Assembly (NCBI RefSeq): GCF_013122565.1
Contig: NZ_CP053258.1
DNA length: 64,000 nucleotides
Direction: 5' to 3' (one strand)
DNA from: Escherichia coli
Lineage (GTDB): Bacteria > Pseudomonadota > Gammaproteobacteria > Enterobacterales > Enterobacteriaceae
The position numbers were made by a program. Each line of letters opens with the position of its first letter. The stretch's first letter is position 1. Below are positions 48,001 to 54,000 of this stretch, piece after piece.

Positions 48001-51000
48001 TTGTATATTGTTCGGCAACATTTTGGCAGCGACTATGCTAACCATATTGCCCGACGGATGGTCGTACCGCCATATCGCACCGGCGGTCAGGCGCAGTTTA
48101 TTGAGCAACCAGTGCCGAAAAATACCCATGATGAACGCATAAACCTCCTGCTGGATTACCTGCGGCAAAACATTGCGCAACAGCATGATCTCGACTCGCT
48201 GGCGCAGCGAGTAATGATGAGTCGCCGCACATTAACTCGCCATTTTATGAAAGCGACCGGTTCGAGTATCGCCGAATGGCTCATTACTGAACGCTTACGC
48301 CGTAGCCAGGAACTGTTGGGATCCAGTCAGTTGCCCGTTGAGCGGATAGCGGCTGAGGTGGGTTTTCTCTCACCTGTGACCTGGCGTCAGCATTTTAAAT
48401 CTCACTTCGGCGTCAGCCCCGCCGAATGGCGCAAAACCTTTCGCGGTATGGCATGATAGCGCGTGCAGGAAAGTCAATTCAGGTTCCCCACTAACCAACT
48501 GAATTGTGGGAAGATTGCTTTATCAGGCTTAATACAAGCCATTCGGTAACAGTTTTTCTCGCTCCCGCCCTGTCACTCCTGTTGATTGTGCAATGTTACA
48601 AAAATGCTTCATTTTTGTTGATTTTCTACTGTGATCAATTCGGCAATATCCTCTCCTGAATTTCACCAGACTACTTCCAGCCCATTCGCAATATCAGGAG
48701 AGACAAATGAGCAGCACCTCCGCCGACTTCCAGAATTTGTATCAGGCACTGAGTCACAGCGCCGCCCGCAGTCCGAATGACCTGGCGCTGGCGTTTGAGG
48801 ATCAGCGCTATATGTACCGCGATTTTCACCTGCGGGTACAGCGGACGATGGCGCAACTTGACCGCAGCTGGTCGTTGCGCAAAGGCGACCGGATCCTGCT
48901 GGCCCTGGGGAATCATCCCGCTTTTTGCGAAGTCCTTTTTGCGGCAGTTGGTCTGGGCATCGAGGTGGTGCCTTTCAGCACTAAGCTTAAGCAGGCCGAG
49001 AGCGAGGAGCTGGTGGGTCATATCGCGCCCCAGGTCGTGCTGTTCGATGCAACCGTGCAGGACTGGCTGAAAAACACCCCCAACGCGCGCGCTGTTTCAC
49101 TTAGTGAATGGCTGGCGCTTTCTCTTCCCGAACCGCTGACTCGCCTGCCGGCCCAGGTTAACCGCGACGACACGGCGGTGATGATGTTTACCTCAGGTAC
49201 TACCGGGGAGCCAAAAGGCGCGATTATCACCCACCATAATCTGCTCTGCGCGATTGACGCCTATACGCAAAAACTGAATCTGACCGCTGCGGATAGCACT
49301 ATTCTGGCGGTGCCTATTTATCACATCACTGGCCTGTCGGCGCTGCTGGCGCTGTTTATTAGCCTTGGTGCGAGCATCTGGCTGCAACACCGGTTCAATG
49401 CCTCGCAGGTGATCAATACCCTGCGCGAGCAAAATATTACCTTTCTGCACGGCTCGCCAACCATCTTTATCCTCCTATGTCAGGCGGCACGCGAAATAAG
49501 CGACAGCCATCCGGGCGATTTTCCCGCGCTACGGACGATCGCTTGCGGTGCGGGCCACCTGAGCGACGGCCTTATCAAAGAGTTAAAAACGCTGTTCCCG
49601 CATACGGCAATTCAGCCGATCTACGGGCTCACCGAAACGACCTCACCCGCGACGATTTTTCCAGGCGACGTCTGGGGTAGCGAGAAATGCGGCAGTTCGG
49701 GCCAGGCGATCCCCGGCCTCACGATTACGATTCGCAACGATCGCCAGCAACGTCTCCCTGCCGGACAAATTGGGCATATCTGGCTGAAAGGCGATGTGGT
49801 CATCCGCGAGTACTGGCAGCACAGCGAAAGACGCCCGAGCTGCGATGAACAGGGCTGGTTTTGTACGGGTGATTTGGGCTATCTCGACGACGAAGGCTGG
49901 CTGTACATCAAAGACCGCAGTAAAGACATGATCAATCGCGGTGGGGAGAAAATTTACTCTCTGGAGCTGGAAAACATTCTCTCTACCTATCGGGGAGTAC
50001 GGGAAGTCGCCGTGATCCCGGCCCCCAGCCCGCTCTATGGTGAAGAGCCGGTGGCGTTTATCGTGCCGGACGGTCAACACCACCTGACAAGCGAAGAGAT
50101 CCTCTGCTGGCTGAAGGTCAAAATTGCCCGCTTTAAGCTTCCGGCACGCATTATTTTCACCCGCATTTTACCCCGTACCCATAACGGAAAAGTGAGCAAA
50201 CAACAGCTCAAAACACGCCTTGCGGAATCGATCATCACGTTATCAACGGAGGATAAACAGTGAGTAACAAATTTATCAGCGCCCATGAAGCGGCGCAGTT
50301 AGTCACCAGCGGCGATACCGTCTGCACCGTCGGGATGACGCTTATCGGCGCGGCAGAATCCATTTTAGCGGCCATTGAAGCGCGCTTTCTGACCGAGGGC
50401 ACACCGCGCGATCTGACATTGTTACATGCCGCAGGGCAAAGCGATCGGCAGCGCGGCATTCAGCACTTCGCCCATCAGGGAATGGTGACGCGGCTTATCG
50501 GTTCGCACTGGGGCCTTGCGCCGCGCTGGATGGCGATGATCAACAACAACGAAGTGGAAGCCTGGTGCCTGCCGCAGGGGCAGATCGTCCATCTTTATAG
50601 CGCGATGGCCGCCGGACTTACAGGGCGACTCTCCCCCGTCGGGCTGGGTACTTTTGTCGATCCGCGCATAGAAGGCGGGCGGATGAATGCCCGTACCCGC
50701 GAAAAGCCAGATCTGATTGAGCATGTGATGTTTCGCGGCGACGAGTATCTGTTTTATCCAGCCATTCCCCTGAACGTCGTCATTGTGCGCGGAACTCATG
50801 CCGATGAAGACGGCAACCTCACTACGGATGAAGAGGTCATGAAACTGGAAGTTCTGCACGCGGTTCTCGCCGCCAGACGTTACGGGGCGAAGGTGCTGGC
50901 GCAGGTGAAATATCGTGTGGCGAAAGGTTCGCTGCATCCGAAAAGCGTCACCGTTCCTGGCAACCTGATCGATGCCATTGTGGTGTGCAACGAGCCGCAG

Positions 51001-54000
51001 ACGGATCACCGCCAAAGCTCCAGTTGGGACTTCGATCCGGCACTGTGCGGCGATATCCAGTTGCCCGCAGCGCAGAATGCGCCGCTGCAACTCGACCTGC
51101 GCAAACTTATCGGGCGGATCGCCTGCCGCTATCTGACGCCCGGCTGTGTCATCAATCTTGGCACCGGGATCCCCAATGATGTGATTGGCGCCATCATCCA
51201 TGAAGAACAGCTCGGCGAGCAAGTCACCATCACCGTTGAATCGGGGATCTACGGTGGGCAGCAGGCGGGCGGCGTTGATTTTGGTATCGGTCGTAATCTG
51301 AGCGCGATGATAAGTCACCAGGATCAAATGCTCTATTACAACGGCGCGGGCGTCGATATCACCTTTATGGGTGCCGGCGAGATGGATCCGCACGGTCACG
51401 TCAACGCCACGCGGCTCGGTGCATCCTGCCCCGGCGCAGGCGGTTTTATCGACATCACGCAGAATGCCCGCCACGTCGTGTTCTGCTCCTCTTTTACCGC
51501 CAAAGGGCTGGAGATTGCCTGTGAAAATGGGCAGTTGCATATCCTGCGCGAAGGCGAGGTACGTAAGTTCGTCGCCGGGGTTAATCAGATTTCTTATAAC
51601 GGTGAGCTGGCCCGCAACAAAGGCCAAACCATGCATTACGTCACCGAACGGGCAGTGTTCGAACTACGTCCGCAGGGACCGGTGCTGACGGAAATCGCCC
51701 CCGGCATCGATCTTGAGCGCGACATCCTGGCACATATGGATTTTCGTCCGGCTATCGCCGGGGATCTTAAGGTAATGGACAGCCGTTTATTTGCCCCGCA
51801 GCCCTGTGGCCTGGCGGAACATCTGTCCCACAATTCATCCTCTGACTCATAAGGAAATTAACTATGAAACTAGCCAGTAAAACGGCCATTGTCACCGGCG
51901 CCGCGCGCGGTATCGGATTTGGTATTGCCCAGGTGCTTGCGCGAGAAGGTGCCCGAGTCATCATCGCCGACCGCGACCCACATGGCGAAGCCACTGCCGC
52001 ATCCCTGCGCGAACAGGGTGCCCAGGCGCTGTTTATCAGCTGCAATATTGGCGATAAAACGCAGGTTGAAGCGCTGTTTTCCCAAGCCGAAGAAGCGTTT
52101 GGCCCGGTGGATATTCTGGTTAATAACGCCGGTATCAACCGCGACGCCATGTTGCACAAACTCACTGAAGCGGACTGGGACACGGTGATTGACGTCAATA
52201 TGAAGGGCACGTTTCTCTGTATGCAGCAGGCGGCAATCCGTATGCGCGAGCGCGGCACGGGCCGCATTATCAATATCGCTTCCGCAAGCTGGCTTGGCAA
52301 CGTTGGGCAAACCAACTATTCGGCGTCAAAAGCGGGCGTGGTCGGGATGACTAAAACCGCCTGTCGCGAACTGGCAAAAAAAGGGGTCACGGTTAACGCC
52401 ATCTGCCCCGGTTTTATTGATACCGATATGACGCGCGGCGTCCCGGAAAACGTCTGGCAAATCATGATCAACAAAATTCCTGCGGGCTACGCCGGGGAGG
52501 CGAAAGACGTTGGCGAGTGTGTGGCGTTTCTGGCGTCCGACGGCGCGCGCTATATCAATGGTGAAGTGATTAATGTCGGCGGCGGCATGGTTCTGTAAGG
52601 GGAAAAAGATGATACAGGCTAATGATATTGTGGTGGTCAGCGGCGTCCGTACCGCTATTGGCACGTTTAATGGCAGTCTTAAGCATACCCACCAGCATGA
52701 CCTGGGGGCAGCGGTCATTCGCGAAGCGGTCAGCCGCGCCGGACTTGCGCCGAAAGATATCGATGAAGTGATCGTCGGCAACGTTGGGCAAATCGCCGAA
52801 AGCGGTTTTATCGCCCGCATCTGCCAGCTTCGGGCGGGGATCCCGCAGGAAAGTACCGCGTATTCGGTTAACCGCCAGTGCGGCTCCGGTCTACAGGCCC
52901 TGGCAGACGGCATGATGCAGCTACAAAGCGGTCAGGCCGATGTCGTCGTCGCCTGCGGAACTGAAAATATGACCCAACTGCCCTACTACCTGCGTAAAGC
53001 GCGGGATGGCTATCGCATGGGTCATGGCGAGCTGGAAGATGGTCTGATTTCTATCCTCACCTGGCCTGAAGGGCCTTATCACAACGGCATCACGGCGGAA
53101 AACGTCGCGCAACAGTTCGGGATCACCCGCGAAGCGATGGACGATTTCGCCTGGTCAAGCCAGCAGAAGGCGCTGAAAGCCATCGCGCAGGATCGCTTTC
53201 GCGAACAGATCCTGCCCCTTGAAGTGCCGGACGGCAAAAAAGCCTCCCGCCTGTTCGCGGTTGATGAACACCCGCGTGACACCCCACGCGAAAAGCTCGC
53301 CACGCTGCGACCGGCATTTAAAGCCGACGGCGTGGTGACGGCAGCCAACTCATCCGGCATTAACGACGGTGCGGCTGCGCTGGTGATGATGACCCGTCAG
53401 CAGGCGGAAAAGCGTGGCTTAACCCCACTAATGCGGATCCGCGGCTGGGCGGTTGCCGGCTGCGGCGCAGATATCATGGGCTTTGGCCCTGCTCCCGCGA
53501 CCCGGCGTCTGATGGACCGTCTCAATATGGATGTCCACGCCATAGATTTAATTGAACTCAATGAGGCCTTCGCCGCCCAGGCGCTGGCGGTGATGAACGA
53601 TCTGCGTCTCGATCCGGCCCGCGTCAACGTTAATGGCGGCGCAATCGCCCTCGGACACCCGGTGGGTGCCAGCGGTGCGATCTTGCCGGTCAAACTCATG
53701 TATGAAATGGCGCGCAGCGGTGCACGTACCGGTCTGGTCACGATGTGCATCGGCGGCGGTCAGGGAATTTCTATGCTGTTCGAGCGCGAAGGCGCTTAGG
53801 AAAAGACGGCCCGAAGTGGGGCTTCGGGCCGAGCGTCGTTCGGGCCAGTACCCGGCGACAACCTATGAGCTGACGAACGGGATCGTGTCGATCCCGGCAA
53901 GGCTTCTGACCACGAATACGGGGAAATAATAACCATGTCCGCAATAAATGAAAAGGTGATAAACGGGACGCAGCTACAACGCACCCATAAAAAGATCTAC

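What the first reader, a model, noticed from the sequence alone, without database searches (positions are those of the whole stretch)
48707..53799. Incomplete beta-oxidation-like operon: CoA ligase, CoA-transferase, SDR and thiolase, with no acyl-CoA dehydrogenase or enoyl-CoA hydratase
Four tightly spaced genes (GTGA overlap between ligase and transferase; 11-nt and 10-nt gaps after) encode two alternative CoA-activation routes plus a dehydrogenase/reductase and a thiolase. With no dehydrogenase/hydratase pair, the predicted chemistry is activation of a 3-hydroxy or 3-oxo acid to its CoA ester, oxidation to a 3-oxoacyl-CoA, and thiolytic cleavage. That is a short catabolic route for a hydroxy acid or ring-opened lactone, not classical fatty-acid beta-oxidation. 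The substrate is not predictable from sequence.
Basis: inference. Interest (0 to 1): 0.7.

Follow-up and report, generated by a model that had tools for sequence, protein, structure and literature searches.

The report
Deoxyribonate breakdown island in E. coli
The four genes are real and belong to a 10.4-kb island acquired from a Klebsiella relative, which sits where this E. coli's lactose operon should be and matches a gene cluster already shown genetically in Klebsiella michiganensis to be needed for growth on 2-deoxy-D-ribonate, so it is a new copy of a known system.

Summary
Ligase (48707-50263), CoA-transferase (50260-51852), SDR (51864-52598) and thiolase (52609-53799) have exactly the stated junctions, intact catalytic motifs and dN/dS of 0.04-0.09.

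They are the first half of a larger unit: MFS transporter, SMP-30 lactonase, second MFS, a 40-codon remnant of glycerate kinase, and a CdaR-type regulator, ending at 58882.

All eight proteins are 93.8-96.6% identical to, and in the same order as, a K. michiganensis cluster. That cluster matches the one Price et al. 2019 (PMC6365646) found specifically needed for growth on 2-deoxy-D-ribonate. Their proposed route is deoxyribonyl-CoA, then 3-keto-deoxyribonyl-CoA, then acetyl-CoA plus glyceryl-CoA, then glycerate.

Three points need correction:
- The substrate can be predicted by orthology.
- The transferase most likely unloads glyceryl-CoA rather than simply offering a second activation route.
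- The operon extends about 5 kb beyond the stated end.

Specific to this window:
- The host is E. coli.
- The island (48484-58916) replaces lacIZYA.
- It is absent from 5,426 complete E. coli genomes.
- Its glycerate kinase gene carries an in-frame deletion.

The pathway rests on genetics only; I found no enzymology. Interest is low to moderate.

The parts
48484..58916 (+). Whole acquired island (10.4 kb). It occupies the position of lacIZYA between ovrA/mhpR and cynX.
   Evidence: E. coli homology stops at 48483 and resumes at 58917. E. coli 33F4 has lacI-lacZ-lacY-lacA between the same flanks. There is no megablast hit of 48707-53799 in 5,426 complete E. coli genomes. The island is about 90% DNA-identical to Klebsiella loci over 48517-58882. 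GC is 0.560 against 0.516 for the rest of the window. No flanking repeats were found.
48517..48706 (+). Upstream regulatory region of the operon, with the conserved motif TTGTGCAAnGTTACAA at 48586-48601.
   Evidence: The motif is invariant in 7 taxa, including CwR94 and Affinibrenneria, whose coding DNA is only 72-77% identical. It occurs once in the window at 0 mismatches. The scan found no consensus sigma-70 promoter on the + strand. An activator-dependent promoter is my inference.
48707..50263 (+). AMP-forming acyl-CoA ligase (proposed deoxyribonate--CoA ligase), 518 aa.
   Evidence: NCBIfam acyl-CoA ligase models match. Identity is 93.8% to the K. michiganensis ligase. Adenylation motifs are present. 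Distant homologues are fused to glycerate kinase.
50260..51852 (+). Fused family-I (YdiF-type) CoA-transferase, 530 aa. Proposed to convert glyceryl-CoA to glycerate.
   Evidence: YdiF 2AHU matches at 361 bits and the YdiF Glu333 position aligns with Glu327. Identity is 94.6% to K. michiganensis.
51864..52598 (+). Classical SDR, proposed NAD+-dependent deoxyribonyl-CoA 3-dehydrogenase, 244 aa.
   Evidence: It matches PDB 7TZP (512 bits) and 6T6N (510 bits) over the full length; the printed 7TZP alignment differs at only a few positions. 6T6N is 'K. pneumoniae FabG2 (NADH-dependent)'. Asp36 and Tyr152/Lys156 are present. Identity is 96.3% to K. michiganensis.
52609..53799 (+). Short-chain thiolase, 396 aa. 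Proposed to cleave 3-keto-deoxyribonyl-CoA to acetyl-CoA plus glyceryl-CoA.
   Evidence: TIGR01930 scores 453 bits and BktB-like models match. PDB acetoacetyl-CoA thiolases match at 386 bits. The Cys91/His350/Cys380 motifs are present. Identity is 95.7% to K. michiganensis.
53809..53829 (+). Conserved GC-rich hairpin just after the thiolase stop codon, inside a conserved 135-nt spacer.
   Evidence: It occurs once per locus in L001-L006 and in Providencia L012. One stem position shows A-U, U-A and C-G pairs. Folding z-scores are -3.8 and -2.8. There is no Rfam hit.
53935..55272 (+). MFS transporter 1 (D-galactonate/anion:cation symporter type), 445 aa.
   Evidence: TIGR00893 matches at 270 bits. 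Identity is 96.6% to K. michiganensis. Mutants in the gene at this position in M5al had the stronger deoxyribonate phenotype.
55286..56164 (+). SMP-30/gluconolactonase-family lactonase (proposed deoxyribonolactonase), 292 aa.
   Evidence: PF08450 is recorded for its 96%-identical cluster representative. PDB SMP-30/regucalcin proteins match. It is 68% identical to the lactonase in the Pseudomonas SDR-BKACE-lactonase-MFS cluster.
56255..57592 (+). MFS transporter 2, 445 aa.
   Evidence: MFS models match. Identity is 95.3% to K. michiganensis, 69% to the Pseudomonas cluster MFS and 74% to the Moorella cluster MFS.
57606..57728 (+). In-frame remnant of glycerate kinase: 40 codons, made of the first 11 and roughly the last 29 codons of the 391-aa gene.
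   Evidence: The alignment to K. oxytoca shows that L001 18956-20010 is missing. The L001 gene is a glycerate kinase (TIGR00045, 433 bits). The remnant keeps its reading frame and the ATGA overlap with the regulator start.
57725..58882 (+). CdaR-type (sugar-diacid regulator-like) transcription factor, 385 aa.
   Evidence: NF008550 (CdaR family) matches at E=8e-46. Orthologues carry PF05651 Diacid_rec plus PF13556 HTH_30 and lie at the 3' end of the cluster in Klebsiella, Providencia, Zobellella and L010.

Best explanation
The four genes are the enzymatic core of a horizontally acquired operon for catabolism of 2-deoxy-D-ribonate through CoA-bound intermediates. It is orthologous to the cluster characterised genetically in Klebsiella michiganensis.

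Proposed mechanism:
1. Deoxyribonate, or its lactone opened by the SMP-30 lactonase, enters through the two MFS transporters.
2. The AMP-forming ligase makes deoxyribonyl-CoA.
3. The NAD+-dependent FabG-like SDR oxidises the C3 hydroxyl to give 3-keto-deoxyribonyl-CoA. This hydroxyl has the D, '(3R)-hydroxyacyl-like', geometry, which fits this SDR class and not FadB-type dehydrogenases.
4. The thiolase cleaves this product to acetyl-CoA plus D-glyceryl-CoA.
5. The YdiF-type CoA-transferase releases D-glycerate. It may pass the CoA to incoming deoxyribonate, so that the ligase only primes the cycle.
6. Glycerate is phosphorylated. In this copy the cluster's own glycerate kinase is deleted, so the host's GarK/GlxK would have to do it.
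7. A CdaR-type regulator at the 3' end probably activates the operon through a conserved upstream site.

Shown here:
- Gene families, motifs and orthology.
- Synteny and the island boundaries.
- The glycerate-kinase deletion.

Taken from the literature:
- The deoxyribonate-specific mutant phenotype and the proposed reaction order.

Inferred:
- The stereochemical fit of the SDR.
- CoA recycling by the transferase.
- Reliance on host glycerate kinases.
- The regulator's binding site.
For: Orthology and synteny:
- All eight island proteins are 93.8-96.6% identical to those of a K. michiganensis chromosome.
- That chromosome has the order AMP-binding, CoA_trans, adh_short, thiolase, MFS, SGL, MFS, Gly_kinase, Diacid_rec/HTH_30.
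- K. oxytoca and K. grimontii show the same order.
- Price et al. 2019 list the same components at consecutive locus tags BWI76_RS23695-RS23730. They report the cluster is important on deoxyribonate, but not on deoxynucleosides or deoxynucleotides nor under 92 other conditions.

Glycerate as the C3 product:
- Glycerate kinase is in or next to the cassette in Klebsiella, Providencia and Zobellella.
- It is fused to the ligase in ~890-aa proteins.

Substrate link independent of the CoA enzymes:
- The lactonase (68% identical) and MFS2 (69% identical) recur in a Pseudomonas GntR-SDR-BKACE-lactonase-MFS cluster. That architecture is the one reported for the CoA-independent deoxyribonate pathway.

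The cassette as a module:
- Ligase, transferase, SDR and thiolase travel together with varying transporters in Providencia, Zobellella, an unnamed gammaproteobacterium-like contig and Moorella.

Cofactor:
- The near-identical K. pneumoniae SDR (PDB 6T6N) is described as NADH-dependent. Asp36 is present.

Integrity:
- All catalytic motifs are intact.
- dN/dS is 0.04-0.09 for all eight genes.
Against: - None of the four reactions has been shown in vitro. The only paper in the searched library that mentions deoxyribonyl-CoA is the genetic study. The GapMind paper says deoxyribonate is degraded by only one pathway in its rules, and describes deoxyribonate oxidation as involving an unknown glyceryl-CoA hydrolase.
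- I could not retrieve the M5al proteins. Orthology to the tagged genes is inferred through another K. michiganensis genome with the same gene order.
- The glycerate kinase is deleted in this copy, so the pathway may be incomplete or unused in this strain.
- The low dN/dS mostly reflects history before the transfer.
- Expression in E. coli is untested.
- The island's closest relatives are only about 90% identical in DNA, so specificity could have drifted.
Confidence: 0.8

Rival explanations
1. The enzyme logic is the same, but the physiological substrate is a different 3-hydroxy acid. Candidates include another 2-deoxy-aldonate, 3,4-dihydroxybutyrate, or 3-hydroxybutyrate/acetoacetate. On this view deoxyribonate is only a fortuitous substrate in the laboratory.
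For: - No enzymology exists.
- The ligase, thiolase and SDR only match generic family models.
- Some relatives add a FadB-type 3HCDH dehydrogenase (L010), which hints at more than one stereoisomer or substrate.
- The authors themselves discuss uncertainty about the natural substrates.
Against: - The orthologous cluster's phenotype was specific to deoxyribonate among about 95 conditions.
- The recurrent glycerate kinase, including the fusion to the ligase, fixes a C3 glycerate product. With acetyl-CoA this implies a 2-deoxy-pentonate.
- The lactonase and MFS2 are shared with the Pseudomonas deoxyribonate cluster.
- 2-Deoxyglucose did not support growth.
Confidence: 0.12
2. The island is a decaying or silent passenger in this E. 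coli. On this view the glycerate kinase deletion marks the start of pseudogenisation and the genes do nothing useful in this host.
For: - The glycerate kinase is reduced to 40 codons.
- The exact proteins are found on a single contig among about 15 billion sequences.
- The island is in none of 5,426 complete E. coli genomes.
- K. pneumoniae copies also show decay: a truncated MFS2 in L003 and an ISKpn1 insertion in L018.
Against: - All eight remaining ORFs are full length with intact catalytic motifs.
- The deletion is in frame and preserves the ATGA coupling to the regulator gene.
- From general knowledge, E. coli normally has two glycerate kinases of its own (GarK, GlxK) that could make the island gene redundant.
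- Affinibrenneria also lacks a cluster-encoded glycerate kinase at that position.
Confidence: 0.1
3. This is an ato/YdiF-like short-chain fatty acid or acetoacetate utilisation operon, or a FabG-containing lipid-synthesis module, as the public annotations suggest.
For: - NCBIfam NF004198 'FabG' scores 352 bits, above its cutoff of 296.
- RefSeq labels the K. pneumoniae orthologue fabG, with the GO term fatty acid biosynthetic process, and gives the thiolase the GO term fatty acid beta-oxidation.
- The transferase resembles YdiF and FadX.
Against: - The island has no AtoDA-type two-subunit transferase, AtoE or AtoSC, and no ACP, FabH or FabF context.
- The orthologous SDR is described as NADH-dependent.
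- The cluster carries a sugar-lactonase, sugar-acid-type MFS transporters, a CdaR-type regulator and, ancestrally, a glycerate kinase.
- The mutant phenotype was on deoxyribonate only.
Confidence: 0.03

Closest known systems
Klebsiella michiganensis M5al deoxyribonate utilisation cluster, BWI76_RS23695-RS23730 (Price et al. 2019, mSystems, PMC6365646)
   Same: The gene families and order match: CoA synthetase, CoA-transferase, beta-hydroxyacyl-CoA dehydrogenase, thiolase, MFS, lactonase, MFS. All shared proteins are 93.8-96.6% identical to a K. michiganensis copy. The proposed chemistry is the same.
   Different: - The host is E. coli and the island sits in the lac locus.
- The glycerate kinase is reduced to a 40-codon in-frame remnant.
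- DNA identity is only about 90%, and dS to K. oxytoca and K. pneumoniae (0.33-0.55) exceeds the dS between those two Klebsiella species (0.18-0.25). The donor is therefore an unsampled, deeper lineage.
- GC3 is lower: 0.60-0.67 against 0.66-0.76 in K. oxytoca.
CoA-independent oxidative deoxyribonate pathway of Pseudomonas simiae WCS417, Paraburkholderia bryophila and Burkholderia phytofirmans (same paper)
   Same: The substrate and end products are the same (acetyl-CoA plus glyceryl-CoA, then glycerate). The lactonase (about 68%) and MFS2 (about 69%) are homologous to those in a Pseudomonas cluster of that architecture.
   Different: That pathway oxidises the free acid with a different SDR, only 30% identical, and cleaves it with a BKACE enzyme (PF05853). 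Here the acid is first thioesterified and then cleaved by a thiolase. The island has no BKACE.
E. coli YdiF acyl-CoA:acetate CoA-transferase (PDB 2AHU/2AHV/2AHW) and Staphylococcus FadX
   Same: Both are fused alpha/beta family-I CoA-transferases of about 530 aa. YdiF scores 361 bits over residues 6-517, and the residue aligned to YdiF Glu333 is a glutamate. The FadX model scores 384 bits.
   Different: The genomic context differs. The FadX score is well below its equivalog cutoff of 750. The proposed donor here is glyceryl-CoA, which is untested.
Klebsiella pneumoniae 'FabG2 (NADH-dependent)', PDB 6T6N/6T6P and 7TZP
   Same: It is essentially the same protein as the window's SDR: 510-512 bits over all 244 residues, with only a few substitutions in the printed 7TZP alignment. 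It is the structurally solved orthologue.
   Different: It was deposited and named as a fatty-acid-synthesis FabG. The genomic context argues that it is a catabolic 3-hydroxyacyl-CoA (deoxyribonyl-CoA) dehydrogenase.
Classical fatty-acid beta-oxidation (FadD/FadE/FadB/FadA) and the PhaA/BktB-PhaB module run in reverse
   Same: The sequence ligase, 3-hydroxyacyl-CoA oxidation, thiolysis is shared. The thiolase and SDR are closest to BktB/PhaA-type thiolases and to (3R)-specific FabG/PhaB-type reductases.
   Different: There is no acyl-CoA dehydrogenase or hydratase, because the substrate already carries the 3-OH. The dehydrogenase is an SDR rather than the FadB/HADH family. The substrate is a polyhydroxy C5 acid.

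Membership tests
Klebsiella-type deoxyribonate acyl-CoA pathway cluster (Price et al. 2019) | AMP-forming CoA synthetase, CoA-transferase, SDR beta-hydroxyacyl-CoA dehydrogenase and thiolase as four consecutive co-directional genes | tested here: met
   The order and spacing match. Identity to the K. michiganensis L017 proteins is 93.8, 94.6, 96.3 and 95.7%. The gene list in the paper matches.
Klebsiella-type deoxyribonate acyl-CoA pathway cluster (Price et al. 2019) | A downstream MFS - SMP-30 lactonase - MFS block | tested here: met
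   The genes are at 53935-55272, 55286-56164 and 56255-57592. Identity to K. michiganensis is 96.6, 95.9 and 95.3%. The lactonase is about 68% identical to a Pseudomonas cluster lactonase, in line with the 70% the paper reports for its K. michiganensis/P. simiae pair.
Klebsiella-type deoxyribonate acyl-CoA pathway cluster (Price et al. 2019) | A cluster-encoded glycerate kinase | tested here: not met
   Only a 40-codon in-frame remnant remains at 57606-57728. About 1,053 nt are missing relative to K. oxytoca and K. michiganensis.
Klebsiella-type deoxyribonate acyl-CoA pathway cluster (Price et al. 2019) | Genes specifically required for growth on 2-deoxy-D-ribonate | not testable with these tools
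   The phenotype is known only for K. michiganensis M5al. It needs growth and knockout experiments in this E. coli.
Klebsiella-type deoxyribonate acyl-CoA pathway cluster (Price et al. 2019) | Direct sequence identity to the M5al locus-tagged proteins BWI76_RS23695-RS23730 | not tested
   The M5al sequences were not retrievable. Another K. michiganensis chromosome (GCA_015721435.2, L017) with the identical gene order served as a proxy.
Classical fatty-acid beta-oxidation operon (fad) | An acyl-CoA dehydrogenase and an enoyl-CoA hydratase/FadB-type 3-hydroxyacyl-CoA dehydrogenase | tested here: not met
   None of the island's ORFs belongs to these families.
ato acetoacetate/short-chain fatty acid system | Two-subunit AtoD/AtoA transferase, AtoE transporter, AtoB, and AtoSC two-component regulation | tested here: not met
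   The transferase is a single 530-aa YdiF-type fusion. AtoD/PcaI-type models match only weakly (71 and 55 bits, below their cutoffs). The transporters are MFS and the regulator is CdaR-type.
FAS-II 3-oxoacyl-ACP reductase FabG | A score above the family cutoff, plus NADPH dependence and a fab/acp gene context | tested here: inconclusive
   NF004198 scores 352 bits against a cutoff of 296, and TIGR01830 scores 282 against a cutoff of 298. However, the orthologue is described as NADH-dependent, Asp36 is present, and the context is catabolic with no fab genes.
CoA-independent deoxyribonate pathway (P. simiae type) | [quoted passage not shown] | tested here: not met
   The island has no BKACE. 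The window's SDR is only 30% identical to the SDR next to BKACE in Pseudomonas L015.

The most novel reading that the evidence does not exclude
The ligase and the transferase are neither redundant activators nor simply 'activation plus product release'. Instead they form a CoA-conserving cycle. The YdiF-type enzyme would be a glyceryl-CoA:deoxyribonate CoA-transferase that re-uses the thioester of the C3 product to activate the next substrate molecule. The ATP-consuming ligase would then only prime the cycle.

On this reading the island turns a lac-negative, divergent E. coli lineage into a consumer of deoxyribonate (a product of DNA damage that is also found in urine) using host glycerate kinases. 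The conserved hairpin-containing spacer after the thiolase (53800-53934) would be a so far undescribed cis-acting RNA element that sets the enzyme:transporter expression ratio.
Probability: 0.25. Interest if true: 0.45.

Novelty: new member of a known kind. Interest (0 to 1): 0.3.

Why it matters
- It gives a concrete, testable function to four genes that public annotation labels generically or misleadingly. Examples are 'class I adenylate-forming enzyme', 'FabG / fatty acid biosynthesis' and 'thiolase / beta-oxidation'.
- It shows that the solved 'FabG2' structures (6T6N, 7TZP) belong to this catabolic pathway.
- The acyl-CoA route for deoxyribonate still lacks any enzymology. The GapMind paper treats deoxyribonate as having a single pathway with an unknown glyceryl-CoA-releasing step. 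The YdiF-type transferase is an obvious candidate for that step.
- An E. coli that naturally carries the island in place of lacIZYA, minus the glycerate kinase, is a convenient natural experiment. It can test pathway sufficiency and dependence on host GarK/GlxK.
- None of this changes the general picture. The system is already described at the genetic level.

Tried and rejected
- **E. coli megablast:** searching the four genes against 5,426 complete E. coli genomes gave nothing. This first suggested a non-Escherichia source. Flank searches and exact protein look-up then showed that the host is E. coli and the region is an island.
- **ORF after MFS2:** I expected the 393-aa ORF at 59004-60185 to be the cluster's glycerate kinase. 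It is cynX. The kinase turned out to be deleted.
- **Affinibrenneria spacer:** I tested whether Affinibrenneria shares the same deletion. Its spacer is unrelated, so its lack of the kinase is independent.
- **Mobility signatures:** there are no flanking direct or inverted repeats. No transposase- or integrase-sized ORF lies within the island; its ORFs are the eight listed genes.
- **Rfam:** a scan of the island at E<=1 gave no hits, so the conserved spacer hairpin is not a described RNA family.
- **Promoter scan:** no consensus sigma-70 promoter was found upstream of the ligase. Terminator-like hits inside coding regions were ignored as scan noise.
- **Upstream motif:** I looked for further copies of the motif. 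There are none beyond chance.
- **Plasmid search:** I looked for a closer donor. Only K. pneumoniae records at about 89% identity turned up, no closer than the chromosomal copies.
- **Genome scan:** the single-protein scan of GTDB genomes returned only 8 loci because the peptide patterns were strict. It cannot be used to estimate how widespread the cluster is.
- **Literature:** I found no biochemical follow-up of the acyl-CoA route.

Full report
**1. Observation**

The four ORFs exist as described.
- Ligase: 48707-50263 (518 aa).
- CoA-transferase: 50260-51852 (GTG start, GTGA overlap).
- SDR: 51864-52598 (11-nt gap).
- Thiolase: 52609-53799 (10-nt gap; the 52573 start of the longest ORF is not used by orthologues).

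NCBIfam and PDB searches place them in the expected families: AMP-forming acyl-CoA ligases, fused YdiF/FadX-type family-I CoA-transferases, FabG-like classical SDRs and short-chain (BktB/acetoacetyl-CoA-type) thiolases. Catalytic motifs are intact.

No acyl-CoA dehydrogenase or enoyl-CoA hydratase lies nearby.

dN/dS against Klebsiella orthologues is 0.04-0.09 for every gene, so these are real, constrained genes.

**2. The unit is larger than the finding**

The same strand continues with these genes:
- MFS transporter, 53935-55272.
- SMP-30/gluconolactonase-family protein, 55286-56164.
- Second MFS transporter, 56255-57592.
- CdaR-type regulator, 57725-58882.

Between MFS2 and the regulator lies a 123-nt ORF (57606-57728). 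It consists of the first 11 and roughly the last 29 codons of a glycerate kinase gene. Klebsiella copies carry the full 391-aa kinase there (TIGR00045, 433 bits). The window lacks about 1,053 nt, in frame, and keeps the ATGA overlap with the regulator's start codon.

**3. Host and island**

The flanks are E. coli.
- mhpA-mhpR-MBL-ovrA is 99.5% identical up to 48483.
- cynX-cynS-cynT-cynR is 97.6% identical from 58917.
- The rest of the window is ordinary E. coli chromosome, mak to mhp.

In E. coli 33F4 the same flanks enclose lacI-lacZ-lacY-lacA. The left junction falls about 10 bp before the lacI start codon. So a 10.4-kb segment (48484-58916) replaces the lac operon.

The four-gene segment (48707-53799) gave no megablast hit in 5,426 complete E. 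coli genomes. The neighbouring query 55200-62400 matched E. coli only from the cynX flank onward. The exact proteins (QJU25330.1-QJU25335.1, labelled E. coli) occur on a single 4.82-Mb contig.

Island GC is 0.560, against 0.516 for the rest of the window and 0.601 for the K. oxytoca cluster.

DNA identity to K. michiganensis, K. oxytoca, K. grimontii and K. pneumoniae is 89-91%. dS to K. oxytoca and K. pneumoniae (0.33-0.55) exceeds the dS between those two species (0.18-0.25). The donor is therefore an unsampled relative, or the island has been evolving apart for some time.

I found no repeats flanking the island. No closer copy exists on plasmids.

**4. What it is**

Price et al. 2019 (PMC6365646) describe a K. 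michiganensis M5al cluster with these genes:
- CoA-synthetase (BWI76_RS23695)
- CoA-transferase (RS23700)
- beta-hydroxyacyl-CoA dehydrogenase (RS23705)
- thiolase (RS23710)
- MFS (RS23715)
- lactonase (RS23720)
- MFS (RS23725)
- glycerate kinase (RS23730)

The cluster is important for growth on 2-deoxy-D-ribonate, but not on deoxynucleosides or deoxynucleotides nor under 92 other conditions.

A K. michiganensis chromosome (L017) shows exactly this order, followed by a Diacid_rec/HTH_30 regulator. The window's eight proteins are 93.8-96.6% identical to its products. This is orthology by any usual standard, although I could not compare with the M5al sequences themselves.

**5. Independent support for substrate and product**

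(a) Glycerate kinase accompanies the cassette in Klebsiella, Providencia and Zobellella. In a set of ~890-aa proteins it is fused to the ligase. This fusion argues that the C3 product is glycerate. With acetyl-CoA as the C2 product, the substrate must be a 2-deoxy-pentonate.

(b) The lactonase (68%) and MFS2 (69%) have close homologues in a Pseudomonas GntR-SDR-BKACE-lactonase-MFS cluster. That is the architecture of the CoA-independent deoxyribonate pathway in the same paper.

(c) The ligase, transferase, SDR and thiolase cassette is a mobile module. It also occurs with TRAP or MFS transporters in Zobellella, in an unnamed contig and in Moorella. The Moorella MFS is 74% identical to MFS2.

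**6. Mechanism**

Shown: the families, motifs and context.

From the paper:
- The ligase makes deoxyribonyl-CoA.
- The SDR oxidises it to 3-keto-deoxyribonyl-CoA.
- The thiolase yields acetyl-CoA plus glyceryl-CoA.
- The transferase may convert glyceryl-CoA to glycerate.
- Glycerate kinase gives 2-phosphoglycerate.

My inferences:

(i) The C3 hydroxyl of 2-deoxy-D-ribonate has the D configuration. Spatially this matches a (3R)-hydroxyacyl group, even though it carries the CIP label S. That explains why a FabG/PhaB-type SDR is used instead of a FadB-type dehydrogenase, and why no hydratase is needed. Besides FabG proteins, the PDB hits for this SDR include a (3R)-hydroxyacyl-CoA dehydrogenase and acetoacetyl-CoA reductases.

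(ii) The SDR uses NAD+. Its near-identical K. pneumoniae orthologue, PDB 6T6N, is 'FabG2 (NADH-dependent)', and Asp36 occupies the position I recall as typical of NAD-preferring SDRs.

(iii) The transferase could pass CoA from glyceryl-CoA to incoming deoxyribonate.

(iv) With its own kinase deleted, this copy must rely on the host's GarK/GlxK. Those genes lie outside the window, so this is untested.

(v) The invariant TTGTGCAAnGTTACAA motif at 48586-48601, together with the lack of a consensus promoter, suggests activation by the CdaR-type regulator.

**7. Caveats**

- No enzyme of the acyl-CoA route has been assayed. The only paper in the library that mentions deoxyribonyl-CoA is the genetic study.
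- The GapMind paper treats deoxyribonate as having only one pathway, and describes deoxyribonate oxidation as involving an unknown glyceryl-CoA hydrolase.
- Function in this E. coli is not demonstrated.

**8. Verdict**

This is a new member (an E. coli copy carrying a kinase deletion) of a known, genetically characterised kind of system.

Interest is low to moderate. The main value is annotation transfer, correcting the 'FabG' label, and providing a natural construct for the missing biochemistry.

Noticed in passing
window 48484-58916 (junctions 48483/48484 and 58916/58917): The island sits exactly where lacI-lacZ-lacY-lacA lie in other E. coli, between ovrA/mhpR and cynX. This strain therefore lacks the lac operon at its canonical locus. 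The left breakpoint is about 10 bp before the lacI start codon. No repeats flank the island and no transposase or integrase gene lies within it.
   Followed up: yes
window 57606-57728: The glycerate kinase gene of the cluster is reduced to an in-frame 40-codon mini-ORF (MKIVIALDPFK...KRMTL*). It keeps its Shine-Dalgarno sequence and the ATGA overlap with the downstream regulator gene, so translational coupling to the regulator may be preserved.
   Followed up: yes
window 53800-53934 (hairpin 53809-53829): The spacer between the thiolase and the first transporter is more conserved than the neighbouring coding DNA. It contains a hairpin, GCCCGAnGUGGGGCn'UCGGGC, found once per locus from E. coli to Providencia, with compensatory changes (A-U, U-A, C-G). 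There is no Rfam match and no U-tract on the + strand. It may stabilise the mRNA or act as a processing or attenuation element.
   Followed up: partly
window 48586-48601: A 16-nt motif, TTGTGCAATGTTACAA, lies about 105 nt upstream of the ligase start. It is invariant in seven taxa whose coding DNA is as little as 72-77% identical. It is a candidate operator for the CdaR-type regulator or another factor.
   Followed up: partly
window 46695-48456: An MBL-fold hydrolase and a GlxA/FtrA-type regulator lie between mhpR and the island. RefSeq annotates the regulator in some strains as 'OI-19-encoded virulence regulator OvrA'. Only 435 of 5,426 complete E. coli genomes cover at least 80% of the 44000-48700 query that includes this segment, so the mhpR-lacI gap is a recurrent site of accessory DNA.
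   Followed up: partly
window 1-24000 versus 44000-48483: The first 24 kb reach only 97.3% identity to the best of 5,426 complete E. coli genomes (best hit from an echidna isolate). The mhp/ovrA segment reaches 99.5% and the cyn segment 97.6%. This suggests a divergent lineage with a mosaic, recombined region around the island.
   Followed up: no
L010/L011 8001-10676 (Logan SRA contigs): Ligase homologues of about 890 aa are fused to a glycerate kinase domain. Their cluster (TRAP transporter, CoA-transferase, SDR, thiolase, CdaR-type regulator) also carries an extra FadB-type 3-hydroxyacyl-CoA dehydrogenase (PF02737/PF00725). That could allow use of a second stereoisomer.
   Followed up: partly
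L014 13497-14885 (Moorella) and L015 8962-10284 (Pseudomonas): MFS2 is unusually conserved across phyla: 74% identity to the transporter in a Moorella ligase-thiolase-transferase-SDR cluster and 69% to the Pseudomonas one. This suggests horizontal spread of a substrate-specific transporter between the two pathway types.
   Followed up: no
L003 (K. pneumoniae ATCC 13883) 17536-18753; L018 (pJNQH373-1) 9301-10664: Klebsiella copies also vary. ATCC 13883 has a truncated MFS2 and lacks the kinase and regulator. A 279-kb IncFIB/IncHI1B K. pneumoniae plasmid record carries the whole cluster with ISKpn1 inserted between the thiolase and MFS1.
   Followed up: no
window 51864-52598; L018 7308-8042: RefSeq annotates the K. 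pneumoniae orthologue of the SDR as 'fabG' with a fatty-acid-biosynthesis GO term, and the PDB entries 6T6N and 7TZP call it a 3-oxoacyl-ACP reductase. The genomic context indicates a catabolic acyl-CoA dehydrogenase, so this is likely an over-annotation.
   Followed up: partly
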